Below are positions 3,858 to 59,945 of a DNA stretch of 64,000 bases, one piece after another. Made by a program: the position numbers and the translations under genes. The DNA comes from an uncultured Parcubacteria group bacterium. Its GTDB lineage: Bacteria > Patescibacteriota > Patescibacteriia > UBA9934 > CAMTUG01. Under the pieces are notes generated by a model. It saw only the letters and a program-made list of their open reading frames with translations, was not told where the DNA came from and did no database searches. The stretch is from NCBI GenBank assembly GCA_947084965.1, contig CAMTUG010000001.1:276206-340205 (forward strand). The letters are read 5' to 3'. Position 1 is the first letter of the stretch; the number at the start of each line of letters is the position of its first letter.

Positions 3858-3863
3858 ATTTGA

Positions 3864-15451: not shown

Positions 15452-15481
15452 GCGCCTCCCGATATACTGACGCCGCCGTAT

Positions 15482-15790: not shown

Positions 15791-15820
15791 AAAAATCTTC
15801 ACTTTGGTGGAGATTTTTTG
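15791..15820 (+). terminator. Rho-independent terminator after the tRNA-Gly/Thr pair
   Basis: aaaatcttcac-tttg-gtggagatttt, followed by a T-run. Confidence 0.6.
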
Positions 15821-15840
15821 TTGTGCTATACTGTTGGCGT

Positions 15841-16521
15841 GTGATTCACTTTAAGAACGTGACCAAAACATATCCACCGAACGTGGTGGGGCTGAAGGAC
15901 TGCTCCTTGCACATCAAACCAGGGGAGTTTGTTTGCATCGTCGGGAGGAGCGGAACGGGGAAGTCTACTCTCGCCAAATGTCTGTTTGCAGAAGAGCGCG
16001 CGGAGCGTGGAACGGTGGAGATTGGCGGCTGGGATATTACCAACATTAAAGCGAGTGAAGTTCCGTTGCTGCGTCGTCAGATCGGTGTCGTCTTCCAGGA
16101 CTTTAAATTATTGCCGAAAAAAACGGCGGAGGAGAACGTTTCCTTTGCCCTGGAAGTTGCCGGCGAACGTCCCAAGCGTATCCGCGAAGTGGTGCCGAAC
16201 GTGATGCGGATCGTCGGGCTGGGGGACAAAATGCACCGCTATCCACATCAGCTTTCCGGAGGGGAACAGCAGCGCATTTCAATCGCTCGTGCCTTGGTGC
16301 ATCGTCCGAAAGTGCTCGTCGCCGATGAACCAACGGGAAATTTAGACACGGTCAACACGCACGAAATCATCGAACTGCTCAAAAAGATTAACGACTTTGG
16401 GACAACGATCGTGCTCGTGACCCACAATCGCGAGGTAGTCAACAAGTTAAAAAAACGGGTCGTCACGCTCGAGGGGGGAAAGATCATCTCCGACGTTGAA
16501 GAAGGAAAATACAAACTGTGA
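15841..16521 (+). CDS. ftsE: Cell-division ABC transporter ATP-binding protein FtsE
   Basis: Walker A GRSGTGKST, ABC signature LSGGEQQRISIARAL, Walker B VLVADEPT. GTG start at 15841. The ORF-track extension back to 15730 would run into the tRNA-Thr. Confidence 0.8.
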   Translation: MIHFKNVTKTYPPNVVGLKDCSLHIKPGEFVCIVGRSGTGKSTLAKCLFAEERAERGTVEIGGWDITNIKASEVPLLRRQIGVVFQDFKLLPKKTAEENVSFALEVAGERPKRIREVVPNVMRIVGLGDKMHRYPHQLSGGEQQRISIARALVHRPKVLVADEPTGNLDTVNTHEIIELLKKINDFGTTIVLVTHNREVVNKLKKRVVTLEGGKIISDVEEGKYKL

Positions 16522-17593: not shown

Positions 17594-19048
17594 ATGACAG
17601 AGAACACGTTTTTCGGGTTAGGGATTGCGCCAAAGCTGCTCGACGTTTTGCAAGCCAATAAATACGTCACGCCAACGCCGATTCAGCAAAAGGCGATCCC
17701 GATCGCCATTGAAGGGAAGGATATCGTTGGAATCGCACAGACCGGAACGGGAAAGACGCTCGCTTTTTCCATCCCGATGCTTCAGCGACTGGCCGCCACC
17801 GGGGGAAAAGGGTTGGTGATTTTGCCAACCCGCGAATTAGCGTTGCAGGTCGAAGAAACGGTCATGAAGATCGGCCGCACGGCTGGGATTCGCACCGCTG
17901 TTTTAATTGGTGGTGCGTCGATGGGGTTACAGAAGAAGATGATCGAACGCAAGCCGCACGTGATCGTGGCCACCCCAGGTCGCTTGAATGATCATTTGCA
18001 GCAGGGGACGGTCAAGCTCGATGACGTCCGAGTTTTGGTGCTCGATGAAGCGGATCGCATGCTCGATATGGGCTTTGCTCCGCAGATCAACAAGATCATG
18101 GTCAAGTTGCCAAAGGATCGCCAGACGATGTTGTTTTCGGCAACGATGCCGCAGGAGATCGCCAAGATGGCCGCGGAATTTATGAAGCTCCCGTTGCGCG
18201 TCGAGATCGCCCGTCAAGGGACGACGGCTGAGCGGGTGGTGCAAGAAATGTTTGTGGTCAACAAAGAAGACAAGCAGCGTCTGCTCGAAAAATTACTCAC
18301 GGAATATAAAGGTACGGTTCTTGTCTTTTCACGCACCAAGCACGGGGCAAAAAAGATTTGCAAAGCGATCCAGACGATGGGGCACACCTCGGCCGAAATC
18401 CATTCCAATCGCTCACTTGCCCAGCGTAAAGAGGCGTTGAATGGATTTAAGAGCGGGAAGTATCGCGTCCTTGTAGCCACCGACATCGCTGCTCGCGGGA
18501 TCGACGTTACGGGGATTGAACTGGTCATCAACTTTGATCTTCCGGATGCTTCCGAAGACTACGTCCATCGCATCGGCCGCACCGGCCGCGCCGGCATGGC
18601 TGGTCGCGCTATTTCCTTTGCTACACCAGATCAACGCGGAGACATTCGCCAGATCGAGCGCTTAGTGCGTACCCAATTCAACTTGTTGAAACCAGAAGGG
18701 TTGCCAGAGCGCCGTGCTGCGCCGCCTGCTGATCCTAAGGATCAACGCACCCATGGCGGTCCTGCGCGTCATGGTGGAGGCCCATCACGCCACGGCCGTT
18801 CGCCACAAGGCGGCCGCCCGAATCGTGATGCTTCCCGTTTTGAACAAAAATCTCATCCAGCCCCACAGCATCACGCTTCGACCGGCGGATCGTCCGCTCC
18901 TCGTCGTGACGACGCTCGTCCACCGCGCCGAGACGATTCGCGTCCACCCCGCCGCGAAGGCGGTCACGGCCGCTCATCCGGCGCCGGCAATCCAAACCGC
19001 CCACCCAAGCGCGGCCCCAAGAAGTATTTTTACGGTTCAGCCTGGTAA
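17594..19048 (+). CDS. DEAD-box ATP-dependent RNA helicase with Arg/Gly/Pro-rich disordered C-terminal tail
   Basis: Q-motif, GTGKT, DEAD (VLDEADRML), SAT, HRIGRTGRAG; the tail carries RPPRRDD repeats. Confidence 0.85.
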   Translation: MTENTFFGLGIAPKLLDVLQANKYVTPTPIQQKAIPIAIEGKDIVGIAQTGTGKTLAFSIPMLQRLAATGGKGLVILPTRELALQVEETVMKIGRTAGIRTAVLIGGASMGLQKKMIERKPHVIVATPGRLNDHLQQGTVKLDDVRVLVLDEADRMLDMGFAPQINKIMVKLPKDRQTMLFSATMPQEIAKMAAEFMKLPLRVEIARQGTTAERVVQEMFVVNKEDKQRLLEKLLTEYKGTVLVFSRTKHGAKKICKAIQTMGHTSAEIHSNRSLAQRKEALNGFKSGKYRVLVATDIAARGIDVTGIELVINFDLPDASEDYVHRIGRTGRAGMAGRAISFATPDQRGDIRQIERLVRTQFNLLKPEGLPERRAAPPADPKDQRTHGGPARHGGGPSRHGRSPQGGRPNRDASRFEQKSHPAPQHHASTGGSSAPRRDDARPPRRDDSRPPRREGGHGRSSGAGNPNRPPKRGPKKYFYGSAW

Positions 19049-19060
19049 TCTCTGCTTCGT

Positions 19061-19384
19061 ATGCCCGTCATCCGCATTGATTTCGACAACGAAAAAGTTT
19101 CGGAGGCGGAGGTGAAATCGCTTTCAGAAGCGACGCGTATGATTGTCCTCGAGACGACCGGCACAGATGATGTGATGGTCTACGCCAACAGCGCACAGAT
19201 CAAAGTCAACGTGCACCCGATCGAGATCTTCGTACAAATGAGTGCGCATAAAGTGAAGGATCTCGAGGAACTCGTGGCCACCATCAAATCTCGCCTCGCG
19301 GAGTGGAAGCAAACAAACAACTTTACCCACCCGATCAATTTTACCTTCATGCCGATGCAGTGGAAGATCGAAATTGGGATTTAG
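19061..19384 (+). CDS. Hypothetical protein, possibly tautomerase/MIF-superfamily (N-terminal Met-Pro)
   Basis: Begins MPVIRIDF... and is ~107 aa; the assignment rests on weak resemblance only. Confidence 0.35.
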   Translation: MPVIRIDFDNEKVSEAEVKSLSEATRMIVLETTGTDDVMVYANSAQIKVNVHPIEIFVQMSAHKVKDLEELVATIKSRLAEWKQTNNFTHPINFTFMPMQWKIEIGI

Positions 19385-30348: not shown

Positions 30349-30726
30349 CTAGCGTGCGACGACCACGTAGATGCCGTCGCGGTACTGACCGAGGAGGTAG
30401 AAGATCAGACCCTCGACCGTGATCCGCAGCGGGCGCAAGTGCGGCTCGAGCGGGACCGTGCCAAGGAGCATCCTTTCGACCGTGGCGGTGGTGCCGCCCA
30501 GCCGCAGGATGTGCACGGCGCTGATGGCGGGGTGGACCTGGGCCTGCAGCGTCCGGATGATCGCTGTGATGATCGGGTTGGGCGTGCCAGGCTTCGTGCC
30601 GGCCAGCTCGCCAGACGCGAGCTCCTCGCGCCGGATCGCGAGGGTGACCATGATCGGTCGGATGCGCAGCTCGGCCTCGGGCCCGAGCGTGGTACGAAGG
30701 TGGTTGCGCAGTCGGGCGGTGTCCAT
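30349..30726 (-). CDS. Hypothetical 125-aa protein, extreme GC3 (cassette gene)
   Basis: GGAG SD 9 nt upstream; putative promoter TTGACG-17-TATGAT. About 93% G/C at third positions but ~45% at second positions. Overlapping antisense ORFs were rejected. Confidence 0.6.
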   Translation of the reverse strand: MDTARLRNHLRTTLGPEAELRIRPIMVTLAIRREELASGELAGTKPGTPNPIITAIIRTLQAQVHPAISAVHILRLGGTTATVERMLLGTVPLEPHLRPLRITVEGLIFYLLGQYRDGIYVVVAR

Positions 30727-39968: not shown

Positions 39969-41294
39969 ATGATTCCCAAATTCATCACCACCAAAAACGC
40001 TGAGCTTCCGGATAATCCGGGGGTGTATTTTTACTATGATACGAAAGGGAAGTTGCTGTACATCGGCAAGGCGACGAGTTTGAAAAAACGCGTGGGATCA
40101 TATTTCACCAAAGCGCATGATAATCGCATCGCCGATTTGGTAACGAAGATTGCGCGGATTGATTACATCGAAACACCGACCGTTATCGAAGCGCTAGTGC
40201 TTGAAGCGAATCAGATCAAAGCGCATACGCCGCCGTACAATGTTTTGCAGCGCGATGACAAAAGTTTTCTGTATGTGGCGATCACCAATGAAGACTTTCC
40301 CAAGCCGACGTTGCTTCGCGGGTTGGAGTTGCAGCGCATGGGAGTTGATCCGTTTGCGCCGACGCTCTCGCTCAAAGCCAAGCGCAAGTTCAAGGCGATT
40401 TATGGTCCGTACACCAGCGGGCATTCGTTGAAGATCGCTCTCGATCTGATTCGTAAGAGCATTCCTTGGACAACCTGTGAACCGCCAGAAGTGACGGGAG
40501 TAGCCAAAGCCTGTTTTTATCGCCACCTTGGCCAGTGTCCAGGAGTTTGTACAGGAGAGATCACCAAGCGTGATTATGCGAAGATTATTCGCAGTCTGAT
40601 GCTGTTTTTTGAGGGCAAAAAGGAACAGATCATACGCCAGATGCGTCGGGAGATGAAGTCTGCGGCGAATGATTTAGATTTTGAACGCGCCGCGGAATTG
40701 AAGCGTAAGACTTTCGCGTTAACGCATATTCAAGACGTGGCGTTGGTGAGTCACGAAGAGCCGTTGCCGTACAATCGCGAGTCGAAGCCGTACATTGATA
40801 TTCTCGGGCGCATCGAAGCGTACGACATCAGTAATATTTCTGGCACCTCCGCAGTTGGATCGATGGTTGTGTTTGATGACGGGAAGCCAGCCAAACAGCA
40901 CTATCGCAAGTTTAAAATCAAAACCGTGGTTGGCGCGAACGACGTGGCGTGTTTAGAGGAGGTGATGCGTCGTCGTTTGGCGCGTGCGGAGCTGCAGCCA
41001 AAAGCTTGGCCGTTGCCAGAGCTGATGGTGATTGATGGCGGCAAGCCGCAAGTCAATCGGGTGCAAGAAGTGCTCGATGAGTTGCAGGTTGCACTGCCGA
41101 TTGTTGGGCTGGCCAAAGGATTTGATCGCAAGCAGGACGTGTTGATTTTTGATCCTGCCAATCGCGAGTTAAAGCGTGTCGTCGAAACGAACAAAGAGAT
41201 CCTCCAGCGCGCCCGCGACGAAGCGCATCGCTTTGCTATCAGCTACCATCGTAAACTACGAGGAAAACGCTCATTATTGGGCCCTCATACTTGA
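39969..41294 (+). CDS. uvrC: Excinuclease ABC subunit C (short form, 441 aa, lacks C-terminal HhH region)
   Basis: GIY-YIG N-terminus (GVYFYYDTKGKLLYIGKATSLKKR), Cys-rich region, UVR domain, RNase H-like endonuclease domain. Confidence 0.85.
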   Translation: MIPKFITTKNAELPDNPGVYFYYDTKGKLLYIGKATSLKKRVGSYFTKAHDNRIADLVTKIARIDYIETPTVIEALVLEANQIKAHTPPYNVLQRDDKSFLYVAITNEDFPKPTLLRGLELQRMGVDPFAPTLSLKAKRKFKAIYGPYTSGHSLKIALDLIRKSIPWTTCEPPEVTGVAKACFYRHLGQCPGVCTGEITKRDYAKIIRSLMLFFEGKKEQIIRQMRREMKSAANDLDFERAAELKRKTFALTHIQDVALVSHEEPLPYNRESKPYIDILGRIEAYDISNISGTSAVGSMVVFDDGKPAKQHYRKFKIKTVVGANDVACLEEVMRRRLARAELQPKAWPLPELMVIDGGKPQVNRVQEVLDELQVALPIVGLAKGFDRKQDVLIFDPANRELKRVVETNKEILQRARDEAHRFAISYHRKLRGKRSLLGPHT

Positions 41295-41319
41295 CAGGGA
41301 TCGATTTTTGCTTTATCTT
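41291..41319 (+). promoter_or_regulatory. Putative sigma70 promoter of cassette gene (TTGACA-17-TATCTT), overlapping the uvrC stop
   Basis: Read directly. Confidence 0.4.
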
Positions 41320-41343
41320 TACCCTCCACCCCAAGGAGTCTCA

Positions 41344-41688
41344 ATGTCCGAGTCCGTCACCGCCTTCCGTCCCGATCCGGCCAAGATCTACGAGATCACG
41401 CTCCTCGAGGGCGACGTGGATCAGATCTGGAACCTCGCCCACGAAGGGGGTCGTTCGATCCTGCTTCTCGTGCGAGACCAGGCCGATCCCGCCGCGCCCG
41501 AGCAGGGGCTCTCCCTCATCCTCTACTCCGTCGCCTGGGAGGGCGGCGACAAGGAAAACCACCCGAACGAGGTCGTCGTCCGCGGCCGCATCCACGGCCG
41601 TACCGCGGACGAGCCGAACCCGGTGATCGGGTTTTGCTGGGACGACAAGTCCCGGACCGGTCTCCTCAACGTGGTCCTCCCGGTCTAG
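41344..41688 (+). CDS. Hypothetical 114-aa protein, extreme GC3 (cassette gene)
   Basis: AAGGAG SD 5 nt upstream of ATG 41344. G/C-ending codons dominate. Followed by terminator 41744-41802. Confidence 0.6.
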   Translation: MSESVTAFRPDPAKIYEITLLEGDVDQIWNLAHEGGRSILLLVRDQADPAAPEQGLSLILYSVAWEGGDKENHPNEVVVRGRIHGRTADEPNPVIGFCWDDKSRTGLLNVVLPV

Positions 41689-46627: not shown

Positions 46628-47005
46628 ATGGCACAGAACGCGGTTGCCCTTAGTGCGAAGTATTTTGTGGTCGATCTCATCGGTGGGATCGTCCTTTTTC
46701 CGGTCTGGTGGTACACGCGCGGATTGGTGAAAATGGGGAGCGGTGTGTTGGACTTTTGGACAGCGGAGCGCAGTTCGCTAGCGATCGGTGTTTGGATCAA
46801 GAACATCTTCACCCCCATGTACGGTACGCACGATATCGCTGGGCGATTGATCAGCTTTTTCATGCGCATCGTGCAGATCATCGGTCGAACGATTGTGCTC
46901 CTGATTTGGACCGTGCTCTTGCTCCTCTTTTTTGTGGCCTATCTCGTTTTTCCTGCCTTTGTCGCTCTGGAAGTAGTCTATCACCTTGTTGGATCGCTTT
47001 TATGA
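46628..47005 (+). CDS. Small membrane protein (3-4 TM), translationally coupled (ATGA) to the ClpB-like gene
   Basis: Hydrophobic; stop overlaps ATG 47002. Confidence 0.5.
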   Translation: MAQNAVALSAKYFVVDLIGGIVLFPVWWYTRGLVKMGSGVLDFWTAERSSLAIGVWIKNIFTPMYGTHDIAGRLISFFMRIVQIIGRTIVLLIWTVLLLLFFVAYLVFPAFVALEVVYHLVGSLL

Positions 47006-49593
47006 AGGGACTTGTTGTAAACAGTAAGCCGTTCGCCTTCACGGAACGCGTCGATGAAGTATCTATCATGTTGAAGCACGCACGTGATGGGGTGCAGAAA
47101 CTGATCGATCTCGTTGTGTTAGCTGGTGTCGTGCTCCTTCTGGCAATTTTTGCTCTCGGTACATTCGTGCTTAGCGATCCGGCAGAGATGATTGAACTTC
47201 TCTTTTGGACGACCCCAAGCGCTTATCTGTTCTGCTTCTGGTCTGCCATCTTTTTGATTCTGTTCTTCATCTATCGTCGGCTTGAGGCACGCCGCGAACA
47301 CGCCGTTCTGCCGACGCTCGAGCCTGACGCCGCTGCAGCGCTCGCACCAACCGATCTTTCTCACGGCCACAATATTCGCCAGTTCATGGATGACGAGGCG
47401 GTCAAATCCGTTGAACAAGGATTTGAAACGGCGCATAAGTTCAAACATGGAAGCGTTGATGCCCTTCACCTGTTTATCGGATCGCTGACCACACGTGAGG
47501 CATCCATCGTCTTTGCGCGCCTCGGATTATCATTCGATACGATGCGTGATGCGGTTGTGCGTCGACTTGCTTCCTTGCCCGCGGCGGGTGGAACGACTCT
47601 CGGTGACAACGCGCAGAAGATTTTGGCGCAGGCCATGAAGTCCGCTATCGTCCATCGACGCCGTCACATTACCCCGGTTGAGCTGATGATCGCTGCGTAT
47701 GACGCAGACGAATTTTTACAGGAGTTATTGTACAGTAAAAAAATTGAACGCCAGGATTTCGAAAACGTCTTGCAGTGGATTCGCATCAACGACGAACAGC
47801 GCCGCCGGATCAAAGAGTTTTCTCGGGCCGCGTCCCTCAAGCCAAAGGGGCCGGTCAACCGTGCCTACACGTCGGTGGCGACACCGTTTCTTGATTCTGT
47901 TTCGGACGACCTGACGCGTGCCGCGGCTTGGGGGCAGTTGCCAATGCTGGTTGGACGCGCTCAGGAATTGACCTCTGTGTTTCGGGCGATCGAAGGGGGG
48001 AATCAGAGCGTTGTTTTGGTTGGGCTACCAGGAGTGGGAAAGGACGCGTTGATTTCGGGGATCGCCGAAGCGATGGTTGAAGAGCGCGTGCCAGAGATTT
48101 TACAAGACAAGCGCTTAGTGAAAATTTCTCTGCCACACATTATTGCCGGATCAAGCGGTACGCAGGCTGAGGCTAAGCTTCTGCAAGCTCTGCGCGAAAT
48201 TGCGATTTCTGGAAACATCGTTACGGTCATCACCGACATCGACCAGATGATCGGGCAGGGGCTCGATCTTTCGGCAATTTTGTCGCAAGAGCTGGATCGT
48301 CGCTACACGTTTGTGATCGCTACCACAACGCCGGAAGGGTATGCCAGCAAGGTGGAGCGCTCGGTGCTCGGACAGAAGCTGATTAAAATTGACGTTCAAG
48401 AGCCGAAGCAAAACGAAGCCATTCATATCCTTGAAGCCAAGATCGGATCGATTGAATATAAGCACAACGTCGTCTTTACGTATGAAGCGGTCAGCCGTGT
48501 CGTTTCCTTAACCGATCGCTACATGCACGATCGTCAGTTGCCAGAAAAGGCGATCGAAGTGGCTCAAGAAGTTGCCCTCGAGGTGCATAAAAAGAAGGGC
48601 GACGGAGCGCGGGTGGTTGGGGAAGATGTTGCCGCGATCATCAGCGAAAAAACGCGTGTGCCGGTGACCGAAGTCGCCAGCGAGGAAAAAGAGAAGTTGC
48701 TGCACTTGGAAGAGCGGATGCACGGCCGTGTCGTTGGTCAAGACGAGGCGGTCAAAGCGATTGCGGCGGCGTTGCGTCGCGCCCGTGCGGACTTGCGTTC
48801 CCAAGATCGTCCGATCGCCAACTTTTTGTTTCTTGGGCCAACCGGGGTCGGAAAAACGGAGCTGGCCAAAACGGTCAGTGAAGTGTACTTCGGCAGCGAA
48901 GGGGCGATGCTTCGCTTTGATATGTCGGAATATCAGGAGCAGGGGAGCATTAATCGTCTGATCGGTGCGGCCGGGCAAGGGGGGTTGATTACTGAAGCGG
49001 TGCGTAAAGCTCCGTTCTCTTTATTGCTCCTCGATGAACTTGAGAAGGCGCATCCAGATATTTTGAACCTCTTCCTGCAAGTGATGGATGACGGCCGTTT
49101 GACCGACGGCGCGGGTCGCACGATCGACTTTACCAACGTTATTTTGATCGCCACGTCAAACGCCGGGGCGCAGTATCTGCAGCAGGCGGTCCGTCAGAAC
49201 ATTCCAATGGAGCAGATCAAGGAGAACCTGATCGAAAACGAACTCAAGGGCATTTATCGTCCAGAGTTTTTGAACCGCTTCGATGGAATTATCGTTTTCA
49301 AGCCGCTTGGGATGGAAGAGGTTGTGCAGATCGCTTATCTCATGATTTCTAAAGTTACGGAACGATTGAAGGCGAAGGGGATTACGTTCCGCGCCAGCGA
49401 CGAAGCGGTGTACGAATTGGCGCAAAAAGGATTTGATCCAAAGTTTGGTGCGCGTCCGTTGCGCCGAGTGATTCAGGAAGAGGTCGACAACGCCGTGGCG
49501 ACCGTCCTTTTGAAAGGGGAAGTGGGACGTCGCGATACGCTGGTGCTTGAAGCAGGGGGCAAGATTCACGTCGAAAAGGCGGCCGAGCTGTAG
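47002..49593 (+). CDS. Membrane-anchored ClpB/ClpC-type AAA+ protein with Clp_N domain, degenerate D1 (GVGKD, no Walker-B Glu) and canonical D2
   Basis: Two N-terminal TM helices. Clp_N repeat (HLFIGSLTTREASIVFARLG). D1 GLPGVGKDALISGIAE / TVITDIDQ. D2 GPTGVGKTELAKTV / LLLLDELEKAHPD. The ORF-track N-extension from 46708 was rejected. Confidence 0.75.
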   Translation: MKGLVVNSKPFAFTERVDEVSIMLKHARDGVQKLIDLVVLAGVVLLLAIFALGTFVLSDPAEMIELLFWTTPSAYLFCFWSAIFLILFFIYRRLEARREHAVLPTLEPDAAAALAPTDLSHGHNIRQFMDDEAVKSVEQGFETAHKFKHGSVDALHLFIGSLTTREASIVFARLGLSFDTMRDAVVRRLASLPAAGGTTLGDNAQKILAQAMKSAIVHRRRHITPVELMIAAYDADEFLQELLYSKKIERQDFENVLQWIRINDEQRRRIKEFSRAASLKPKGPVNRAYTSVATPFLDSVSDDLTRAAAWGQLPMLVGRAQELTSVFRAIEGGNQSVVLVGLPGVGKDALISGIAEAMVEERVPEILQDKRLVKISLPHIIAGSSGTQAEAKLLQALREIAISGNIVTVITDIDQMIGQGLDLSAILSQELDRRYTFVIATTTPEGYASKVERSVLGQKLIKIDVQEPKQNEAIHILEAKIGSIEYKHNVVFTYEAVSRVVSLTDRYMHDRQLPEKAIEVAQEVALEVHKKKGDGARVVGEDVAAIISEKTRVPVTEVASEEKEKLLHLEERMHGRVVGQDEAVKAIAAALRRARADLRSQDRPIANFLFLGPTGVGKTELAKTVSEVYFGSEGAMLRFDMSEYQEQGSINRLIGAAGQGGLITEAVRKAPFSLLLLDELEKAHPDILNLFLQVMDDGRLTDGAGRTIDFTNVILIATSNAGAQYLQQAVRQNIPMEQIKENLIENELKGIYRPEFLNRFDGIIVFKPLGMEEVVQIAYLMISKVTERLKAKGITFRASDEAVYELAQKGFDPKFGARPLRRVIQEEVDNAVATVLLKGEVGRRDTLVLEAGGKIHVEKAAEL

Positions 49594-49594
49594 T

Positions 49595-50650
49595 ATGCAA
49601 TTCTTCTGGTTTCTTTGGGCGGGTCTCGGGTTTCTCGTTGCCTTCCTAGCGATCCCGTTGATCGCTAGGTTTGCCGAACGCGCCGGAGTGGTAGCTCGGC
49701 CTTCTGGACACCCCAAAGAGGTGCACAAAAGCCCCGTTCCATTGCTTGGTGGGCTCGCAGTTTTTTTAGGTGTCGGTGTGCCCCTCCTGTTGATCTTAGC
49801 GACGAGTGACGCTCTGACCGACGGATTGATCCATGCCAGTCACTATCTTGGGTTTCTTCTTGGCGGTGCGGTTCTCATGATCGGTGGATTTTTAGACGAC
49901 AAATACAACCTCCCTCCCAAGGTCACGATTCTTTTTCCCATGATCGCCGCGGCCACGGCCGTCCTTTTCGGGATCGGGGTTGATCGACTGACAAATCCCT
50001 TTGGTGAAACGCCGTTTTTTCTCGCAGACTGGCAATCTTCTTTGCTGACGTTTGTCTGGTTGATGGTCGTCATGTACACCACAAAGTTTCTTGATGGTCT
50101 CGACGGCTTAGCAAGTGGCGTCAGTGGGATCGGTGCGTTTATGATGTTCTTGCTGGCTGTCACGGTGACGTATTTTCAACCGGACGTGGCATTATTCTCG
50201 TTGATTGCGGTCGGGGCGCTGGCAGCATTTTTTGTCTGGAACTTTCATCCGGCCGTTATTTTTCTTGGTGAAGGCGGGAGTACGTATGTCGGATTTTTAC
50301 TCGGCGTGCTTTCGGTCATCGGTGGAGCCAAACTCGGTACACTCCTTCTCGTTCTGGCTATTCCGTTCCTTGATGTGTTGTGGGTCGTGTTGCGCCGTGT
50401 GTTCGTTGAGCATAAATCACCGACGTCCGGTGACCGCAAGCATCTTCATCATCGTCTGCTTGATCTTGGATTGTCTCAGCGTCAAGTGGTCGTCCTCTAC
50501 GTCGGTGTCGCTGCCGCGTCCGGTATGTCGACCCTTCTGCTTCAAAGTCGCGACAAGATTATTACCTTTGGCGTCATCGCTACGCTGATGATCATCGCCG
50601 CGACCTATATTGTTATCACCAGTCGCAAGCGCCTTGAGCACAACGTATGA
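49595..50650 (+). CDS. Polyprenyl-phosphate HexNAc-1-phosphate transferase family (MraY/WecA-like)
   Basis: 10-11 TM, DDKYNLPP and FLDGLDGLASG motifs; MraY versus WecA not resolved. Confidence 0.65.
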   Translation: MQFFWFLWAGLGFLVAFLAIPLIARFAERAGVVARPSGHPKEVHKSPVPLLGGLAVFLGVGVPLLLILATSDALTDGLIHASHYLGFLLGGAVLMIGGFLDDKYNLPPKVTILFPMIAAATAVLFGIGVDRLTNPFGETPFFLADWQSSLLTFVWLMVVMYTTKFLDGLDGLASGVSGIGAFMMFLLAVTVTYFQPDVALFSLIAVGALAAFFVWNFHPAVIFLGEGGSTYVGFLLGVLSVIGGAKLGTLLLVLAIPFLDVLWVVLRRVFVEHKSPTSGDRKHLHHRLLDLGLSQRQVVVLYVGVAAASGMSTLLLQSRDKIITFGVIATLMIIAATYIVITSRKRLEHNV

Positions 50651-51114
50651 TCAAACGCTCTTGGCGATTGTTGATTCTTCTCGCTGCTATCGTGATCATC
50701 GCGATCATGGTGATGAGGATGTCGTCGCCGTCGATCGGTGTGCCCGATGACGGATCTGTTGCATTCGAAGGTGGACCGATCGTTCCGGTGGAGATCTCGG
50801 ATTCACAAGACGAACAGGTTCGTGGACTCTCGGGGCGCGATGGGCTCGCTCCAGGATCAGGAATGCTCTTTGTCTACGATGATCAAAAGGTCCGGACATA
50901 TTGGATGAAAGAGATGCGTTTCTCGATCGATATTATTTGGATTGCGGACGGACAGGTGATCGGGTTTGTCGAGCGCGCTGTGCCGCCGATCGGTCCGGGC
51001 GACCCGCTTGATCTGTACCGGTCCCCAGAACCCGCTGATCGTGTTCTTGAAGTTGAGGCGGGTTTTATCGAAGAACACGGGGTCTTCATCGGGCAGACGG
51101 TGGTAACCAATTGA
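50647..51114 (+). CDS. DUF192-domain protein
   Basis: GLSGRDGLAPGSGMLFVY...SIDIIWIADGQVIG pattern. Confidence 0.55.
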   Translation: MIKRSWRLLILLAAIVIIAIMVMRMSSPSIGVPDDGSVAFEGGPIVPVEISDSQDEQVRGLSGRDGLAPGSGMLFVYDDQKVRTYWMKEMRFSIDIIWIADGQVIGFVERAVPPIGPGDPLDLYRSPEPADRVLEVEAGFIEEHGVFIGQTVVTN

Positions 51115-51215
51115 CGTTTTTCGTCTTCTTTGCTACTATTTTCGCGTCATTCACAGCGCTGGCCAATGGGTTTCAAGAGCTGAAAAGCCCCCAGGTGCCG
51201 CGGTAATTTAAGAGT

Positions 51216-51524
51216 ATGTTCGCAGTTATTAAGACGGGTGGTAAGCAGGAGATCGTCCGCGAAGGACAGCTTTTGACCACCGAAAAGCTCGAGATCGAAG
51301 TCGGTAAGCCCGTAGAATTCGAGGTATTGCTCACCGCCGAAGATGACGGATCGTCGGTCGAAGTCGGCAAGCCGGTGCTCAAAACGGTGGTCAAAGGGAC
51401 GGTCGTTGAACACGGTAAGGGCGATAAAGTGTCGGTTATCAAATACAAAGCCAAGTCGCGTTACCGCCGCAACGGCAGCCACCGACAGCCATTCACCAAA
51501 GTCAAAATCGAAAAGATCGGATAA
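51216..51524 (+). CDS. rplU: 50S ribosomal protein L21
   Basis: MFAVIKTGGKQEIVREGQLL...; 102 aa. Confidence 0.9.
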   Translation: MFAVIKTGGKQEIVREGQLLTTEKLEIEVGKPVEFEVLLTAEDDGSSVEVGKPVLKTVVKGTVVEHGKGDKVSVIKYKAKSRYRRNGSHRQPFTKVKIEKIG

Positions 51525-51528
51525 GGAG

Positions 51529-51556
51529 AGCGGGGTCATGCGCCCCGCTTTTTCGT
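51529..51556 (+). terminator. Rho-independent terminator after rplU
   Basis: agcgggg-tcatgcg-ccccgct followed by ttttcgtttc. Confidence 0.6.
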
Positions 51557-51632
51557 TTCAAAAACAGAAGCGCGCACCCGGAGAGAGCGGCTAGCCGGGT
51601 GGGCTTCTGCCGCGCTTCAGGTGCGCGTGACC

Positions 51633-52100
51633 TCAGCCGTAGAAGCCGAGGCGTTGGTAGAGGTGGGGTGGGAAGGAGACGCTGGGGGTCAGCGCCTGGT
51701 CCTCTGTGGTCGAGGTGGCGACGACCTGGTTGGTGCCGAGGTCCGTGTTCACGAAGAACTGGAACTCGACCGCTCCGGTCCCGAAGAAGGTGGAGATCAC
51801 GGCCACGCCCTGCTCGTTCGAGCGGACGTACCCGTAGTAGTCGAACCCGCTGTAGCCGATCAGCGGGATCTCGAGCTTGAACCCGACCAGCGCGCAGAAC
51901 GGTCGGTCGCCCCTGAGGACGATGTTCTGCATGCTGCGCTCGAGCCCTTCCGCCTTCGCACCGCGGTAGGTGTAGCGGACCATCTGGTTGGAGTACTTGA
52001 TGAAGTCGGCCATGAAGCCGAACTTCTTCAGGAATTCCTTGCTGAGGAAGACCGCCAGTGTGGTGGAGAGGACGAGGCAGGTGGTGAGGAGAACGGTCAT
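51633..52100 (-). CDS. Secreted/membrane-anchored hypothetical protein (155 aa), extreme GC3 (cassette gene)
   Basis: GGAAGG SD upstream. Near-consensus promoter TTGACT-17-TATATT, whose + strand reverse complement lies at 52146-52174. Terminator hairpin gaagcgcg...cgcgcttc plus T-run after the stop. The antisense ORFs 51621-52190(+) and 51502-52155(-) were rejected. Confidence 0.65.
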   Translation of the reverse strand: MTVLLTTCLVLSTTLAVFLSKEFLKKFGFMADFIKYSNQMVRYTYRGAKAEGLERSMQNIVLRGDRPFCALVGFKLEIPLIGYSGFDYYGYVRSNEQGVAVISTFFGTGAVEFQFFVNTDLGTNQVVATSTTEDQALTPSVSFPPHLYQRLGFYG

Positions 52101-52238
52101 CGGAACCTTCCTGTAAGCCGCGGCGGGGATGCCATGCGGGGGATGAATATAGCATATTTTGGGCAAAAAGTCAACGGTTCAGAAAGGTGATTTCTACAAA
52201 AAGTAACAAAAAACAGCCCTTTCTTAACGAAAGAACTG

Positions 52239-52841
52239 TTAAACTTCTTTTCTGCCAGTCAGTGATTCGCCTAACGTCACTTCGTCGGCGAATTCGAGCT
52301 CGGCGCCGAGCGGGAGACCGCGGGCGAGGCGAGTGACTTTGCGCCCGAGGGGACGCAGGAATTTTGATAAATAGTGGGTCGTCGTTTCGCCGTGGACGTT
52401 GGGAGAAACAGCAAGGATGATTTCGGTGATTCCCGGTTCGGCTTCAAGACGAACGACCAATTCACGGATATTCAAAACGTCAGGTGTGACCCCTTCGACA
52501 GGATTCAACAACCCACCAAGAACGAAGTAGCGGCCGCGGAATTCGCCGGTGTCTTCGATCGTGGCGATGTCGCGCGGTTCGGCGACCACACAGAGTGTCT
52601 GGGTTACGCGCTTAGGGTCACCGCAAATTTCGCACGGCGTGCGTTCGGAGTAGGTGCGACACAGATCGCAAACGGTGATGTCGCGTGTCAACGCCACAAG
52701 CGAACGGGCGAAGTGCTCAACTTCACCTTTGGGCTGGCGCAGCAAGGCAAAAACATACCGGAGGGCGGTTTTTGGACCGACCCCCGGAAGCGTGGAAAAT
52801 GCTGCCACGAGATTATGAATAGGAGCGGGAAACTTTCGCAT
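52239..52841 (-). CDS. recR: Recombination protein RecR
   Basis: HhH (LPGVGPKTALR), C4 zinc finger CDLC...CEIC, Toprim. Confidence 0.9.
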   Translation of the reverse strand: MRKFPAPIHNLVAAFSTLPGVGPKTALRYVFALLRQPKGEVEHFARSLVALTRDITVCDLCRTYSERTPCEICGDPKRVTQTLCVVAEPRDIATIEDTGEFRGRYFVLGGLLNPVEGVTPDVLNIRELVVRLEAEPGITEIILAVSPNVHGETTTHYLSKFLRPLGRKVTRLARGLPLGAELEFADEVTLGESLTGRKEV

Positions 52842-52870: not shown

Positions 52871-53170
52871 TTATAATCCAAGATCCTTGAATGCATCAAG
52901 CCCTCCCATCTCTTTCATCTTGCCGGCGAGTTCTTTATGTAGCTTTTTGAGAGCGTCGTTGAAGGCGTCCTTGATCCCTTGCTGAAGTTTGACGACATCG
53001 TTCATCATCTCTGGGTCGATCTTTACATTTTCGACCTGTTGATTCCCGTCGATCATGACCGAAACTTTTCCCCAGCAGGCCGAGCCTTCGCAGTGAACTT
53101 CGGCGAGCACGGACTGCATGCCTTTGGCTTTGTCGCGTAAGTCCTTAATCGCTTTAATTTTGTTGAACAT
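52871..53170 (-). CDS. ybaB: Nucleoid-associated protein YbaB/EbfC
   Basis: 99 aa with the YbaB pattern. Confidence 0.8.
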   Translation of the reverse strand: MFNKIKAIKDLRDKAKGMQSVLAEVHCEGSACWGKVSVMIDGNQQVENVKIDPEMMNDVVKLQQGIKDAFNDALKKLHKELAGKMKEMGGLDAFKDLGL

Positions 53171-53179: not shown

Positions 53180-54643
53180 TTAGAATGGGTGAGCTGGCGG
53201 GGCCGGTGGCGGTGGGGGCGGCGGTGGCAATGCACGTCCGCCGTTCGGCCCGATCCCCGCAGGGATCGCGGCACCTGGTGGCGGAGGGGTATTGCTTCGG
53301 CGTTCGAGATTTTTAAAGCTGGCGCGGGTAGAGTCAAAAAAGACGTTGACCACCCCGGTCGGGCCGTTACGATGTTTGCTGATATGGATTTCAGCCAAAT
53401 TTTTCTCTTCTGGGGCCAAATCTTCGAGCCGGAAGTTCTTATCCGCCGCTTTGCGGTAGATAAATAATACCACATCGGCGTCCTGTTCAATGGAACCGGA
53501 TTCACGCAAGTGAGCGAGTTTTGGAATGGCCGGTTTTACCAGTTCCACGGCACGGTTCAGCTGGGAGAGGCAGAGCACAGGGATGTTCAACTCACGAGCA
53601 AGTTGTTTGAGCGAACGGCTGATTTCAGAAACTTCTTGCACGCGGTTGTCACCCCCGTTGTACTTATGCGATTCCATCAGCTGTAAGTAGTCGATGATGA
53701 TCAATCCCAAGCCGTGTTCTGCCTGCAAACGTCGGGCTTTGGTGCGAATTTCAAGCGCCGTACAGCCGGCGGAGTCGTCGATGAAGATCGGTGCTTCGGA
53801 CAAAACCCCGAGCGCCTGGCCGATCCGCGGAAAATCATCATCGCGTTCGGAAAGTTTACCGGTGCGCAATCGCCACAAGTCGATTCCGGCTTCGGCACAG
53901 ATCATACGATCCACCAGCTGTTCTTTGGACATTTCCAGTGAAAAGATCCCCACCGCCTTTTTTGTTTTAACCGCGGCGTTGCGGGCAATGTCCAAAGCCA
54001 GCGACGTCTTTCCAACCGAAGGACGGGCAGCGAGAATAATCAGGTCCGAGTTTTGCAGACCGGCCAAAATATTGTCGAGTTCGGTGAATCCCGTTGTCAG
54101 GCCACGTAACTTGCCGCGTTCTTTGTGCAGTTCGTCGATGCGTTCGAAAGCGTCAGAAAGGACAGAGCGAATGGGGGAGAAGGACTGCTTCAAAAAGTTA
54201 CTGGAGACGTTGAAAAGTTTTTGTTCCGCCCCGTCAAGCAGAACGTCAGTGTCTTTTTCTTCATCATAGCCCATTTCGGTGATCTCGCTTGCGGTACGAA
54301 TCAACCGCCGCAGTGTCGCCTTCTTCTGAATAATTTTGGCGTAGTGGGCGCAGTTGCCAGACGTAGCCACGGCGTTCGCGAGCTCAGCGAGAAAAGACCG
54401 TCCGCCAATCTGGGTTAGCATCCCGCGTTCGTCCAAGCGGTTTCCCACAGATAGCAGATCGATCGGCTCGTGCCGTTCGAACAATTCAATAATCGTCTCA
54501 AAAACCATCCGGTGGGCGTCTTTATAAAAATCGTCCGCCCGCACCAGGTCGGCCACTTTAATGATCGCATCCGGATCGATCAAAATCGACCCGATCAGTG
54601 AGATCTCAGCTTCCAGGTTTTGTGGGGGGATGCGGTCTGCCAT
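53180..54643 (-). CDS. dnaB: Replicative DNA helicase DnaB with a Pro-rich C-terminal extension
   Basis: N-terminal IPPQNLEAEISLIGSIL, Walker A ARPSVGKTS, and an RecA-like core. The last ~45 aa are PPPPGAAIPAGIGPNGGRALPPPPPPPPAPPAHPF. Confidence 0.85.
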   Translation of the reverse strand: MADRIPPQNLEAEISLIGSILIDPDAIIKVADLVRADDFYKDAHRMVFETIIELFERHEPIDLLSVGNRLDERGMLTQIGGRSFLAELANAVATSGNCAHYAKIIQKKATLRRLIRTASEITEMGYDEEKDTDVLLDGAEQKLFNVSSNFLKQSFSPIRSVLSDAFERIDELHKERGKLRGLTTGFTELDNILAGLQNSDLIILAARPSVGKTSLALDIARNAAVKTKKAVGIFSLEMSKEQLVDRMICAEAGIDLWRLRTGKLSERDDDFPRIGQALGVLSEAPIFIDDSAGCTALEIRTKARRLQAEHGLGLIIIDYLQLMESHKYNGGDNRVQEVSEISRSLKQLARELNIPVLCLSQLNRAVELVKPAIPKLAHLRESGSIEQDADVVLFIYRKAADKNFRLEDLAPEEKNLAEIHISKHRNGPTGVVNVFFDSTRASFKNLERRSNTPPPPGAAIPAGIGPNGGRALPPPPPPPPAPPAHPF

Positions 54644-59867: not shown

Positions 59868-59945
59868 TTGGGTACGCAAAAATCACTTTTACAACTCGTT
59901 TGAGCACAAAATGTATTCAAACGAACTGAAAACTTACTTTATGGA
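59868..59945. repeat. ~78-nt intergenic hairpin element, copy 2 (see 14936-15012)
   Basis: ttttacaaCTCGTTTGAgcacaaaatgtatTCAAACGAactgaaaac. It starts right after a TAG stop, as copy 1 does. Confidence 0.75.

What the first reader, a model, noticed from the sequence alone, without database searches (positions are those of the whole stretch)
51560..52200. GC-rich secreted-protein cassette occupying the position downstream of rplU where rpmA is expected
The rplU-(ysxB)-rpmA arrangement is conserved across bacteria. Here rplU is followed by a terminator and then an antisense-oriented GC3-rich gene with a near-perfect promoter (TTGACT-17-TATATT). The gene encodes a 155-aa exported protein, and L27 is absent from the neighbourhood.
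Basis: partly seen in the sequence, partly recalled or inferred. Interest (0 to 1): 0.5.

Follow-up and report, generated by a model that had tools for sequence, protein, structure and literature searches.

The report
Mobile GC-rich gene cassette beside rplU
A small self-contained gene of foreign, GC-rich composition sits in the spacer after the ribosomal gene rplU in a CPR (Patescibacteria) bacterium and encodes a membrane-anchored protein of unknown function seen so far only in that group; it has not displaced rpmA, because none of the sampled relatives has rpmA there.

Summary
The sequence features are real. rplU (51216-51524) ends in a terminator. It is followed by a minus-strand unit: promoter TTGACT-17-TATATT, SD AGGAAGG, a 155-codon CDS (51633-52100) and its own terminator. 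The gene's GC3 is 0.93 against 0.59±0.06 for host ORFs.

The rpmA reading fails. No L27 lies in the 64 kb. All 20 CPR-like rplU loci lack rpmA within about 10 kb, and 17 show the same convergent rplU→←recR-(ybaB)-dnaB layout. In 59 of 60 non-CPR loci rpmA follows rplU.

"Secreted" is also unsupported. The N-terminus has no basic n-region and the charges follow the hydrophobic helix, which suggests an N-out/C-in anchor.

The protein belongs to an unannotated family of about 190 clusters; the named members are all Patescibacteria. It has a transmembrane helix plus a beta-sandwich (AlphaFold pLDDT 91) with no Pfam, PDB, phage or defence match.

Homologues sit at a different locus in nearly every genome and usually carry the same promoter/UTR/terminator layout. 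They are far GC-richer than their hosts in about 12 of 17 contexts. Their divergence is decoupled from that of neighbouring genes, and one lineage carries the gene in an integron-like cassette array.

Verdict: a horizontally acquired accessory cassette in a variable intergenic spot. Function and GC-rich source are unknown.

The parts
51216..51524 (+). rplU (ribosomal protein L21), 102 aa; the last gene of the plus-strand run ClpB-like / GT4 (MraY-like) / DUF192 / rplU
   Evidence: Pfam PF00829, E 4e-31. The identical protein occurs on Logan contig ERR3478686_112959.
51525..51558 (+). rplU intrinsic terminator (GGAGAGCGGGGU-CAUGC-GCCCCGCUUUUU)
   Evidence: Fold -23.4 kcal/mol, z -3.7, 0 of 200 shuffles as stable. 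A similar hairpin follows rplU in the closest relative, L010.
51561..51627 (-). Terminator of the cassette: a long GC-rich hairpin (51571-51627) followed by the U-tract UGUUUUUG (51569-51562)
   Evidence: Fold of window:51545-51640(-) gives -42.4 kcal/mol, z -2.5; sequence. Homologous cassettes also end in a hairpin plus T-run 25-35 nt after the stop.
51633..52100 (-). CDS of the 155-aa protein (X155): TM helix at residues 2-20, amphipathic helix to residue 36, then a beta-sandwich with the conserved motifs GFDYYG and PPHxYQRLGFYG
   Evidence: Translation. 24 homologues at E 1e-20 to 1e-57 and 188 cluster representatives by profile search. pN/pS is 0.13-0.29 in this frame for close homologue pairs. 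AlphaFold2 pLDDT 91, pTM 0.80. GC3 0.929.
52106..52112 (-). Shine-Dalgarno AGGAAGG, 5 nt upstream of the ATG
   Evidence: Read directly from the sequence. GGAGG sits at the same place in L104, L001, L093 and L094.
52146..52174 (-). Sigma-70-type promoter TTGACT-17-TATATT with an extended -10 TG; the predicted 5'UTR is about 39 nt and GC-rich
   Evidence: Consensus scan, 10 of 12 matches plus TG. The same TTGAC-N17-TAnnnT element ends 44-45 nt before the ATG in L104, L001 and L098, about 45-48 nt in L097 and 52 nt in L093. Not tested experimentally.
52212..52240 (-). recR intrinsic terminator, which marks the right-hand edge of the spacer
   Evidence: Terminator scan, 12-bp stem plus T-run. Fold -17.7 kcal/mol, z -5.1.
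52239..52841 (-). recR, followed by ybaB (52871-53170) and dnaB (53180-54643) on the minus strand; this is the conserved convergent partner of rplU in CPR genomes
   Evidence: Pfam RecR_HhH/Toprim_4/RecR_C and YbaB_DNA_bd. Synteny in 17 of 20 CPR-like loci.
51621..52190 (+). Antisense 189-aa ORF. It is not a gene but a by-product of A3 avoidance in the real CDS; the public Logan assembly calls it as the gene (187 aa)
   Evidence: Logan gene call at L007:8412-8975. The ORF has GC1 0.87, which mirrors the sense-strand GC3. The antisense frame is open only in the window copy and broken in the full-length homologues.

Best explanation
The region at about 51560-52180 is a horizontally acquired, self-contained single-gene transcription unit (own promoter, SD, 155-codon CDS, own terminator). 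It lies in the naturally variable spacer between the convergent terminators of rplU and recR in a CPR/Patescibacteria genome whose closest relatives are Candidatus Uhrbacteria.

It displaces nothing. rplU is a terminal gene with its own terminator in this lineage, and rpmA lies elsewhere in CPR genomes.

The product belongs to an uncharacterised family whose named members are all Patescibacteria. The proteins are small: an N-terminal transmembrane anchor plus a roughly 115-residue beta-sandwich. By the positive-inside rule the beta-sandwich is most likely tethered on the cytoplasmic face (N-out/C-in) and not secreted.

The family behaves as a mobile accessory gene. The whole transcribed unit travels together, lands at different loci, is usually much GC-richer than its host, and in one lineage is carried as a cassette in an integron-like array.

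Shown: the anatomy, the coding strand, the family, the fold class, the CPR-wide synteny, the compositional anomaly, and the decoupling of cassette and host divergence among homologues.

Inferred: that the window copy itself arrived by transfer, the membrane topology, and promoter and terminator activity.

Unknown: the biochemical function. My guess is an accessory membrane-associated factor of the cell-envelope or phage/competitor-interaction class typical of such cassettes; I hold this with low confidence.
For: Anatomy.

Foreign composition:
- GC3 is 0.929 against 0.586 +/- 0.057 for host ORFs (z = 6). T3 is 0.01, and Phe/Tyr/Asn/Asp/Ile/Lys codons are exclusively C- or G-ending.
- The 5'UTR and 3'UTR are also GC-rich, so the anomaly covers the whole transcribed unit and not only the codons.

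Real gene on the minus strand:
- 24 homologues and 188 cluster representatives.
- pN/pS is 0.13-0.29.
- AlphaFold2 pLDDT 91.
- The antisense ORF is not conserved.

No displacement of rpmA: 20 of 20 CPR-like loci lack L27 near rplU, 17 of 20 have convergent recR-(ybaB)-dnaB, and 59 of 60 non-CPR loci have rplU-rpmA. L27 is reported as present in CPR genomes.

Variable spot: the rplU-recR gap ranges from 26 bp to 5.7 kb in relatives and holds unrelated ORFs or nothing. The closest relative, L010 (DnaB 81%, RecR 78% identical), has 306 bp without the cassette.

Mobility of the family:
- Nearly every genome carries it in a different context.
- L001 vs L102: cassette pS 0.13 and 3'UTR 96% identical, while the adjacent DUF1761 gene has pS 0.59 and 69% aa identity.
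- L001 vs L104: neighbouring genes are 77-86% identical, but the X genes are 60% identical and sit at different loci.
- The promoter spacing and the terminator (AGGCCTCC..UUCG..GGAGGCCU, with a compensatory variant in L094) are conserved.
- BLAST similarity between loci stops at the cassette edges.
- In L089, L090 and L096 the gene sits in an attC-like cassette array beside a XerA/IntI-like recombinase.

Topology.
Against: - No donor or GC-rich reservoir was found. Every homologue with readable flanks sits in a host of 0.53 GC or less.
- The GC-rich copies are only 45-65% identical to one another. Simple 'recent transfer plus amelioration' therefore needs a large unsampled GC-rich pool.
- GC1/GC2 (0.54/0.40) and the amino-acid make-up are those of a mid- or low-GC organism. 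That is odd for a gene long resident in a genome of about 70% GC.
- For the window copy itself there is no close relative genome with or without the cassette, no target-site duplication, no flanking repeat and no mobility gene. Its acquisition is inferred from composition and from how the family behaves elsewhere.
- No hit in IMG/VR, INPHARED phages, PLSDB plasmids, PHROGs or PADLOC, so no vector is known.
Confidence: 0.75

Rival explanations
1. Displacement: the cassette inserted into, or replaced, the rpmA position of an rplU-(ysxB)-rpmA operon in this genome, so that L27 was lost or exiled locally.
For: rplU is followed by the cassette and no L27 is found in 64 kb. rplU-rpmA adjacency holds in 59 of 60 non-CPR loci.
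Against: All 20 CPR-like loci lack rpmA near rplU, whether or not anything sits in the spacer. Seventeen have the same convergent recR-(ybaB)-dnaB. rplU has its own terminator both here and in L010. L27 is not among the proteins reported missing from CPR genomes.
Confidence: 0.03
2. Resident lineage gene whose high GC is maintained in place. The family would be native to CPR genomes, and the transcribed unit would be kept GC-rich by selection on the RNA (stability, structure, slow translation of a membrane protein) or by GC-biased gene conversion linked to frequent recombination, not by recent arrival from a GC-rich donor.
For: The GC-rich state recurs in about 12 of 17 contexts, in hosts of 0.32-0.53 GC, among copies only 45-65% identical. 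No GC-rich host was found. GC1/GC2 and the amino-acid composition are CPR-like. The named members are all Patescibacteria.
Against: - Five contexts (L005, L089, L096, L099, L105) are host-like, so high GC is not required for function.
- Cassette divergence is decoupled from that of neighbouring genes in both directions.
- The locus differs in nearly every genome.
- All 19 differences between L001 and L102 are GC<->AT changes and none is C<->G. That looks like ordinary decay, not constrained GC sites, though the sample is small.
- A gBGC effect of this size (0.24 to 0.77) is far beyond what I know to be described in bacteria (my own knowledge, not tested here).
Confidence: 0.15
3. The plus-strand ORF 51621-52190 (189 aa; 187 aa as called in the public assembly) is the real gene, co-directional with rplU.
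For: It is the longest ORF in the region, and the gene caller chose it for Logan contig ERR3478686_112959.
Against: - No promoter or SD was identified for it, and it starts downstream of the rplU terminator.
- Its GC1 of 0.87 and GC3 of 0.54 are the mirror image of a GC3-rich gene on the other strand.
- The minus-strand frame has 24-188 homologues under purifying selection and a confident fold.
- The antisense frame is interrupted in the full-length homologues.
Confidence: 0.02
4. Topology rival: the N-terminal hydrophobic segment is a cleavable or uncleaved signal that places the beta-sandwich outside the cell, making this a surface or secreted CBM-like binding module.
Against: There is no basic n-region (98 of 116 members have no K/R before the hydrophobic core), and 101 of 116 have a more positive C-terminal flank. 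The Cys pair is not conserved; the window protein has one Cys in the domain. The fold matches are at a generic jelly-roll level only.
Confidence: 0.25

Closest known systems
Autonomous accessory gene units of the 'moron' / genomic-islet type (promoter + single ORF + terminator, atypical composition)
   Same: A single ORF with its own sigma-70-like promoter and intrinsic terminator, lying between two unrelated transcription units. Its composition differs sharply from the surroundings, and its distribution across genomes is patchy.
   Different: It is not inside a prophage; the flanks are rplU and recR. No homologue was found in IMG/VR, INPHARED, PHROGs or BFVD. The composition is GC-richer than the host, whereas most foreign DNA in bacteria is AT-richer (my own knowledge).
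Integron gene cassettes (ORF + attC; sedentary chromosomal integron arrays)
   Same: In L089, L090 and L096 a homologue is one unit of a same-strand array of small ORFs. The ORFs are separated by conserved 130-200-nt repeats ending in GTTRRRY-like cores. The cassette-specific inverse core is complementary to the cassette's own 5' boundary. The array lies next to a divergently oriented XerA/IntI-like tyrosine recombinase.
   Different: The window copy has its own promoter, no attC-like repeat and no recombinase among the neighbouring genes. The recombinase in L089 scores below the IntI cut-off (TIGR02249, 234 bits against 265). It is 70-92% identical to many database sequences, the named ones from Patescibacteria, so it may be the housekeeping Xer enzyme.
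rplU-(ysxB)-rpmA ribosomal protein operon
   Same: rplU is present and intact, and a promoter-like site lies upstream (TTGACG-17-TACTAT at 51111-51139).
   Different: No rpmA or ysxB follows. rplU ends in its own terminator and faces recR. This is the arrangement in the sampled CPR-like genomes, not a peculiarity of this one.
Beta-sandwich / jelly-roll binding modules (for example Ruminococcus flavefaciens CBMs 5aot and 5fu2; PirA; HA70 D3)
   Different: The scores are at the level of generic fold resemblance. There is no sequence similarity (profile against PDB gives E > 0.6). The known modules are extracellular parts of larger enzymes, whereas this one is a stand-alone domain on an N-terminal anchor and is probably cytoplasmic.
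Type IV pilins / pseudopilins (N-terminal hydrophobic helix + beta domain), common in CPR bacteria
   Same: A long N-terminal hydrophobic alpha-helix (residues 2-36) followed by a small beta-sheet domain.
   Different: There is no class III leader (no basic leader ending in Gly, no FTLIE-type +1 to +5 motif with Glu5). No pilin appears among the fold-search hits.

Membership tests
rplU-rpmA operon context | rpmA (L27) encoded immediately downstream of, and co-directional with, rplU | tested here: not met
   tblastn with two L27 queries gives nothing in 64 kb (best E 0.74). The same holds for all 20 CPR-like loci, whereas 59 of 60 non-CPR loci meet the feature.
Sec-type signal peptide (secreted protein) | Positively charged n-region before the hydrophobic core | tested here: not met
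   The window protein starts MTVLLTTCLVL with no K/R. Only 18 of 116 family members have any K/R before the core.
Sec-type signal peptide (secreted protein) | Hydrophobic h-region | tested here: met
   The best 19-residue window has a mean Kyte-Doolittle score of 2.56 across the family. AlphaFold predicts a helix over residues 2-36.
Sec-type signal peptide (secreted protein) | Signal peptidase cleavage site (AxA-type) scored by a trained predictor | not testable with these tools
   SignalP and DeepTMHMM are not available. By eye, TLA/VF is a possible site but it is not conserved.
Integron gene cassette | attC recombination site (RYYYAAC ... GTTRRRY imperfect inverted repeat) at the 3' end of the ORF | tested here: not met
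   For the window copy, the CPR attC-like consensus is absent and there are no flanking inverted or direct repeats beyond chance. The feature is met for the homologues in L089 and L096.
Integron gene cassette | Promoterless ORF expressed from the platform promoter, adjacent to intI/attI or within an attC array | tested here: not met
   The window copy has its own promoter-like site and lies between rplU and recR. The neighbouring ORFs are ClpB-like, GT4, DUF192, rplU, recR, ybaB and dnaB.
Phage moron | Located inside a prophage, between phage genes | tested here: not met
   The flanks are housekeeping genes. No phage homologues were found.
Phage moron | Own promoter and terminator, and composition unlike the surroundings | tested here: met
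   (by sequence criteria only).
Horizontally transferred gene | Composition and codon usage far outside the host distribution | tested here: met
   GC3 is 0.929 against 0.586 +/- 0.057 (z = 6).
Horizontally transferred gene | Gene history incongruent with host history | tested here: inconclusive
   Met for homologues: the L001/L102 cassette has pS 0.13 against 0.59 for the neighbouring gene, and L001/L104 neighbours are 77-86% identical against 60% for X at another locus. It could not be tested for the window copy, because the nearest homologue is 65% identical and no close relative genome is available.
Carbohydrate-binding module | Significant structural or sequence match to a CBM family, plus ligand-binding residues | tested here: inconclusive
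Type IV pilin | Class III signal peptide (leader-Gly / Phe or Met at +1 / Glu at +5) | tested here: not met
   The alignment of 25 members shows no such motif.

The most novel reading that the evidence does not exclude
X155 may be one copy of a previously undescribed pool of promoter-to-terminator single-gene cassettes that circulate among Patescibacteria. They would keep a strongly GC-rich composition (GC3 0.66-0.93) inside AT-rich hosts (GC3 0.24-0.59) despite 40-55% protein divergence among copies. That implies either an unsampled GC-rich reservoir (an episome, a virus or a GC-rich CPR clade) or an unknown process that holds the transcribed unit GC-rich. The same gene pool would also feed integron-like arrays that sit next to the Xer/IntI-like recombinase found widely in Patescibacteria. 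Other GC-rich single-gene islets in this window (30349-30723, 3121-5048, 41176-41688) and in other CPR loci (for example L001 10271-10777) may be further members of such a pool.
Probability: 0.35. Interest if true: 0.55.

Novelty: new member of a known kind. Interest (0 to 1): 0.35.

Why it matters
For annotation:
- The public gene call at this locus is on the wrong strand. As a result this protein is missing from a collection of 15 billion proteins.
- The family (about 190 clusters at 50% identity, confident fold, no Pfam entry) deserves a family definition.

For CPR biology:
- The result documents that rplU and rpmA are uncoupled across the sampled Patescibacteria, and that rplU→←recR-(ybaB)-dnaB is a conserved junction whose spacer accepts foreign DNA.

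The more interesting lead is evolutionary. A small accessory gene moves as a complete transcription unit between ultra-small, host-dependent bacteria. It stays conspicuously GC-rich in AT-rich genomes, and in one lineage it sits in an integron-like array. If this is general, it would give a handle on how gene flow works in a group for which almost no mobile-element biology is known.

Tried and rejected
- Family and function searches on X155 found nothing usable. Pfam gave no hit for the window protein; scanning all 25 aligned members gave only marginal, inconsistent hits (best E 0.0038). NCBIfam, PHROGs and PADLOC, and PDB by sequence and by profile, gave only chance-level or marginal, inconsistent hits.
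- Searches for a vector were empty: an IMG/VR scan, and tblastn against phage and plasmid collections.
- The 4044-aa hit P0146 in the profile search is a CshA-repeat/Big_9 adhesin. It matches only 36 profile positions, repeatedly, and I rejected it as spurious.
- The antisense ORF as an overlapping gene: rejected, because it is open only in the window copy.
- RNA gene: Rfam finds only four tRNAs in the window and nothing at this locus.
- Target-site duplications, TIRs and intergenic repeat families around the window cassette: none beyond chance. The CPR attC-like motif is absent from the window.
- Locating rpmA of this organism: not possible. I relied on synteny and on the literature.
- Looking for a GC-rich donor context: the member chosen for its GARP-rich sequence (P0047/L105) sits in a host of about 50% GC and shows no anomaly.
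- GC-rich islets in other CPR loci are not known RNA families and are not homologous to one another.
- Literature searches for GC-rich genes or integrons in CPR bacteria found nothing relevant.
Full report
**1. What is in the sequence**

The plus strand carries a run of genes:
- a ClpB-like ATPase (about 47002-49593);
- a Glycos_transf_4/MraY-like protein (to 50650);
- a DUF192 protein (50647-51114);
- rplU (51216-51524; Pfam Ribosomal_L21p, E 4e-31).

rplU ends in a strong hairpin plus T-run (51525-51558; -23.4 kcal/mol, z -3.7).

On the minus strand recR (52239-52841), ybaB (52871-53170) and dnaB (53180-54643) converge on rplU. recR has its own terminator at 52212-52240.

The 715-bp spacer holds a complete minus-strand unit:
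- -35 TTGACT (52174-52169), a 17-nt spacer ending in TGc, and -10 TATATT (52151-52146);
- a GC-rich 5'UTR of about 39 nt;
- SD AGGAAGG (52112-52106);
- ATG at 52100 and a 155-codon ORF with its stop at 51635-51633;
- a long GC-rich hairpin (51627-51571) and a U-tract (51569-51562).

The upstream TTG at 52166 (177 aa) lies inside the promoter, and the homologue alignment does not support it.

**2. Is the compositional anomaly more than chance?**

- The CDS has GC 0.62 and GC1/2/3 of 0.54/0.40/0.93.
- Forty-nine non-overlapping host ORFs of at least 150 aa have GC3 of 0.586 +/- 0.057, which puts the gene at z = 6.0.
- Third positions are C 0.63, G 0.29, A 0.06 and T 0.01.
- All 15 Phe, 9 Tyr, 5 Asn, 5 Asp, 5 Ile and 6 Lys codons end in C or G. 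Leu is only CTC or CTG, although the host's commonest Leu codon is TTG and it uses TTT more than TTC.
- The UTRs are GC-rich as well.

The overlapping 189-aa plus-strand ORF follows automatically from the avoidance of A at sense third positions. Its GC1 is 0.87, and the equivalent frame is interrupted in the full-length homologues. Even so, it is the ORF called as a gene on the public Logan contig of the same organism (L007). That explains why the real protein is absent from the large protein collection, where the best hit is 65% identical.

**3. The rpmA question**

- tblastn with E. coli and B. subtilis L27 finds nothing in the 64 kb.
- A genome-contig scan with L21 returned 80 loci.
- In 59 of the 60 non-CPR loci, L27 begins 20-700 nt after rplU. 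The exception is a contig end.
- All 20 CPR-like loci have no L27 within about 10 kb. These are Uhrbacteria, Yanofskybacteria, Jacksonbacteria, Komeilibacteria, Kerfeldbacteria, Sungiibacteriota, Saccharibacteria, 'Patescibacteria group', and several MAGs labelled 'uncultured Gammaproteobacteria' that share this window's synteny.
- In 17 of those 20, rplU is followed by convergent recR-(ybaB)-dnaB.
- A survey of CPR ribosomal proteins lists L1, L9, L28, L29, L30, L32 and L33 (plus S21 and L25) as the ones commonly missing. It treats L27 as present and even enlarged (bioRxiv 10.1101/2022.01.07.475337).

rpmA is therefore simply elsewhere in this lineage, and nothing was displaced. I could not locate rpmA of this particular organism with the tools left.

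**4. The spacer is a variable spot**

In the CPR-like loci the gap between the end of rplU and the end of recR ranges from 26 bp to 5.7 kb. It contains nothing, small unrelated ORFs (zinc-ribbon proteins in L009, a 136-aa ORF in L012), or several genes (L013). The closest relative, L010 (DnaB 81%, RecR 78%, YbaB 86% identical), has 306 non-coding bp and no cassette. No relative carries an X155 homologue at this position.

**5. The protein**

Sequence searches:
- Neither a single-sequence nor a profile search matches Pfam, NCBIfam, PDB, PHROGs or PADLOC at a meaningful level.
- The word-indexed search found 24 homologues (E 1e-20 to 1e-57; best identity 65%).
- A profile search of 1.84 billion cluster representatives found 188 (68 at E <= 1e-30), nearly all 145-165 aa.
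- The only named members are from Candidatus Magasanikbacteria and 'Patescibacteria group bacterium'.

Conservation: the invariant positions are F33, L62, F68, L71, G73, F74, D87, G90, P145, H146 and Q149, within the motifs EFLKKFGFM, PFcALVGFkL, GFDYYG and PPHWYQRLGFYG. Close homologue pairs give pN/pS of 0.13-0.29 in this frame.

Structure: AlphaFold2 on the 25-sequence alignment gives pLDDT 91 and pTM 0.80, with a helix over residues 2-36 followed by an eight-stranded beta-sandwich. The structure searches return only generic jelly-roll or CBM-like resemblance:
- Foldseek against the PDB, E >= 0.026;
- BFVD, E >= 0.005 with TM about 0.3.

Topology: in 116 full-length members the segment before the hydrophobic core has a median length of 2 residues, and only 18 contain K/R. 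The 15 residues after the core carry a mean of 3.4 K/R (net +1.9), and 101 of 116 have the more positive C-terminal flank. By the positive-inside rule (established knowledge) this predicts an N-out/C-in anchor with the beta-sandwich on the cytoplasmic side, and not a Sec-exported protein. This is an inference, because no trained topology predictor was available.

**6. The family behaves as a mobile cassette**

Seventeen independent genomic contexts were read. Apart from near-identical contigs and the L001/L102 pair, the flanking genes differ in each. Examples are DUF6498 and an HTH gene, NusA and YidC nearby, GIY-YIG and HlyIII, Dus and DUF8128, SnoaL and Dtd, and GIY-YIG and AbiEii.

In about 12 of the 17 the gene is far GC-richer than its host:

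| Locus | Gene GC3 | Host GC3 |
|---|---|---|
| L097 | 0.765 | 0.244 +/- 0.02 |
| L104 | 0.79 | about 0.25 |
| L094 | 0.77 | 0.39 |
| L001 | 0.79 | about 0.33 |
| L102 | 0.84-0.85 | about 0.33 |
| L098 | 0.71 | 0.27 |

In the other five (L005, L089, L096, L099, L105) the gene is host-like.

Similarity between loci stops at the cassette edges. The GC-rich copies share the whole layout:
- a TTGAC-N17-TAnnnT promoter ending 44-45 nt before the ATG in the window, L104, L001 and L098 (about 45-48 nt in L097, 52 nt in L093);
- a GGAGG SD;
- a 3' hairpin, AGGCCTCCaCGU-UUCG-ACGuUGGAGGCCU plus a U-run in L004, L097 and L098, with a compensatory AGAUCUCC/GGAGAUCU variant in L094 and a longer version in L001 and L104.

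Cassette and host histories are decoupled in both directions:
- Between L001 and L102 the cassette has pS 0.13 and pN 0.04 and its 3'UTR is 96% identical. The adjacent DUF1761 gene has pS 0.59 and 69% aa identity.
- Between L001 and L104 the neighbouring genes are 77-86% identical, but the X genes are 60% identical and lie at different loci.

All 19 differences between L001 and L102 are GC<->AT changes, 18 of them transitions. That looks like ordinary decay of GC-rich DNA in an AT-rich host. An NJ tree places the AT-rich copies as one clade nested among GC-rich lineages.

**7. Link to an integron-like array**

In L089, L090 and L096 the homologue is one of at least six same-strand small ORFs downstream of a divergently oriented tyrosine recombinase. 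By that recombinase, the organism is a CPR bacterium related to Moranbacteria.

The recombinase scores as follows:
- NF040815 'tyrosine recombinase/integron integrase': 233.8 bits, above the cut-off of 220;
- TIGR02249 (IntI): 234 bits, below the cut-off of 265.

The ORFs are separated by conserved repeats of 130-200 nt, with the pattern TACATCG-NNNN-AAC A.CGCATATCTGG ... AACTTCAGATGATGCG.AAAC GTT-NNNN-GAAAT. The variable core at the 3' end of each cassette is complementary to the GTT-NNNN core at its own 5' boundary. For the X gene a 33-nt inverted repeat, 94% complementary, abuts the ATG and the stop codon. This is the logic of attC-bounded integron cassettes.

The recombinase is 70-92% identical to many database sequences, and the named ones come from Patescibacteria. 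It may therefore be the housekeeping Xer enzyme. I did not find this motif in the window, so the window copy is a free-standing unit with its own promoter.

**8. Interpretation and what remains open**

The best-supported reading is a horizontally acquired, autonomous accessory gene that landed in a permissive spacer between two convergent terminators. It has no bearing on rpmA.

The GC-rich source remains unexplained:
- no family member was seen in a GC-rich replicon;
- the GC-rich copies are deeply diverged from one another;
- GC1/GC2 are unremarkable.

Either a large unsampled GC-rich reservoir exists, or some process keeps the transcribed unit GC-rich.

The window contains further GC-rich islets: a 125-aa antisense ORF with its own terminator at 30349-30723; a ClpX-zinc-finger protein plus an MFS transporter at 3121-5048, whose few homologues include the only named ones from Patescibacteria; and 41176-41688. 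Other CPR loci contain such islets too. They are not known RNA families.

The function of X155 is unknown. Its patchy distribution, mobility and cassette contexts suggest a dispensable accessory role at the membrane.

Noticed in passing
L089:2300-8250 (ENA ERZ27284377 k119_318984); also L090 and L096:1-1400: An integron-like platform in a CPR (Moranbacteria-like) genome. A XerA/IntI-like tyrosine recombinase on the minus strand is followed by at least six same-strand small ORFs. These are separated by conserved 130-200-nt attC-like repeats (TACATCG-NNNN-AAC ... GTT-NNNN-GAAAT). Each ORF is bracketed by its own 24-42-nt inverted repeats, and one cassette is an X155 homologue. In a limited literature search I found no paper describing integrons in CPR bacteria.
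   Followed up: partly
window:30349-30723 (minus strand; ATG 'MDTARL...' to stop, terminator hairpin just downstream): A second GC-rich islet (GC 0.67, GC3 0.86). It is a 125-aa antisense-oriented ORF lying between two plus-strand genes, with its own terminator. It has no Pfam or Rfam match, and the minus-strand RNA fold has z -3.2.
   Followed up: partly
window:3121-3741 (+) and 3864-5048 (-): Two adjacent GC3-rich genes (0.82 and 0.84 against a host value of 0.59): a ClpX-type zinc-finger protein and an MFS transporter. The MFS has only 21 database homologues, and the organism-named one is from Patescibacteria. Its identical copy (P0174) lies on an NCBI contig of 476,519 bp, which is the source assembly of this window.
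   Followed up: partly
window:41176-41688 (+) and 18714-19115 (+): Further ORFs with raised GC3 (0.77 and 0.73) and no Pfam match.
   Followed up: no
window:2091-2154 and 2265-2328: An exact 64-nt direct repeat 174 nt apart. The second copy overlaps the 3' end of tRNA-Lys(ttt) (2308-2382, minus strand). It looks like an att-type duplication left by an integration or excision event at the tRNA.
   Followed up: no
window:14948-15011 and 59877-59940: A 64-nt palindromic element (hairpin TTTACAGTTCGTTTGA...TCAAACGAACTGTAAA) present twice at 81% identity, 45 kb apart. It may be a shared terminator or a small repeat family.
   Followed up: no
L104:340-405 and 1163-1225; L001:1000-1147, 1911-1986, 3207-3250: A terminator-like intergenic repeat of about 70 nt (aatcgcttaaccaagcggttatttttt + accctttagctttggaacaa) recurs in several spacers of two related Magasanikbacteria-like genomes. 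In L104 it brackets the X cassette.
   Followed up: partly
L007:8412-8975 (= window 51627-52190, plus strand): The public gene call for this locus is the spurious antisense ORF (187 aa), so the real 155-aa protein is missing from the protein collections.
   Followed up: yes
L091/L092:6001-6735 (GCA_964374115.1; also Logan ERR3478686_130008): A degraded family member (P0022, 244 aa: internal deletion and an unrelated N-terminal extension) occurs in a different genome (GC 0.47) from the same sample as this window's organism. It is 83-84% identical in DNA to the L094 cassette.
   Followed up: partly
L010-L013, L016, L055, L061 (record titles 'uncultured Gammaproteobacteria'): These TPA MAGs share the CPR-type rplU/recR/dnaB synteny, and several (L010-L012) are among the closest relatives of this window (L21 up to 67%, DnaB up to 81% identical). 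Their taxonomic labels look wrong.
   Followed up: no
L001:10271-10777; L061:8514-8921; L101:4167-4993; L103:280-1233 and 15190-16215; L011:11616-12003: Other CPR loci also contain short GC-rich islets (up to +0.24 GC over the host) with no Pfam match for those tested (L001, L101, L103) and no Rfam match. They are not homologous to one another.
   Followed up: partly
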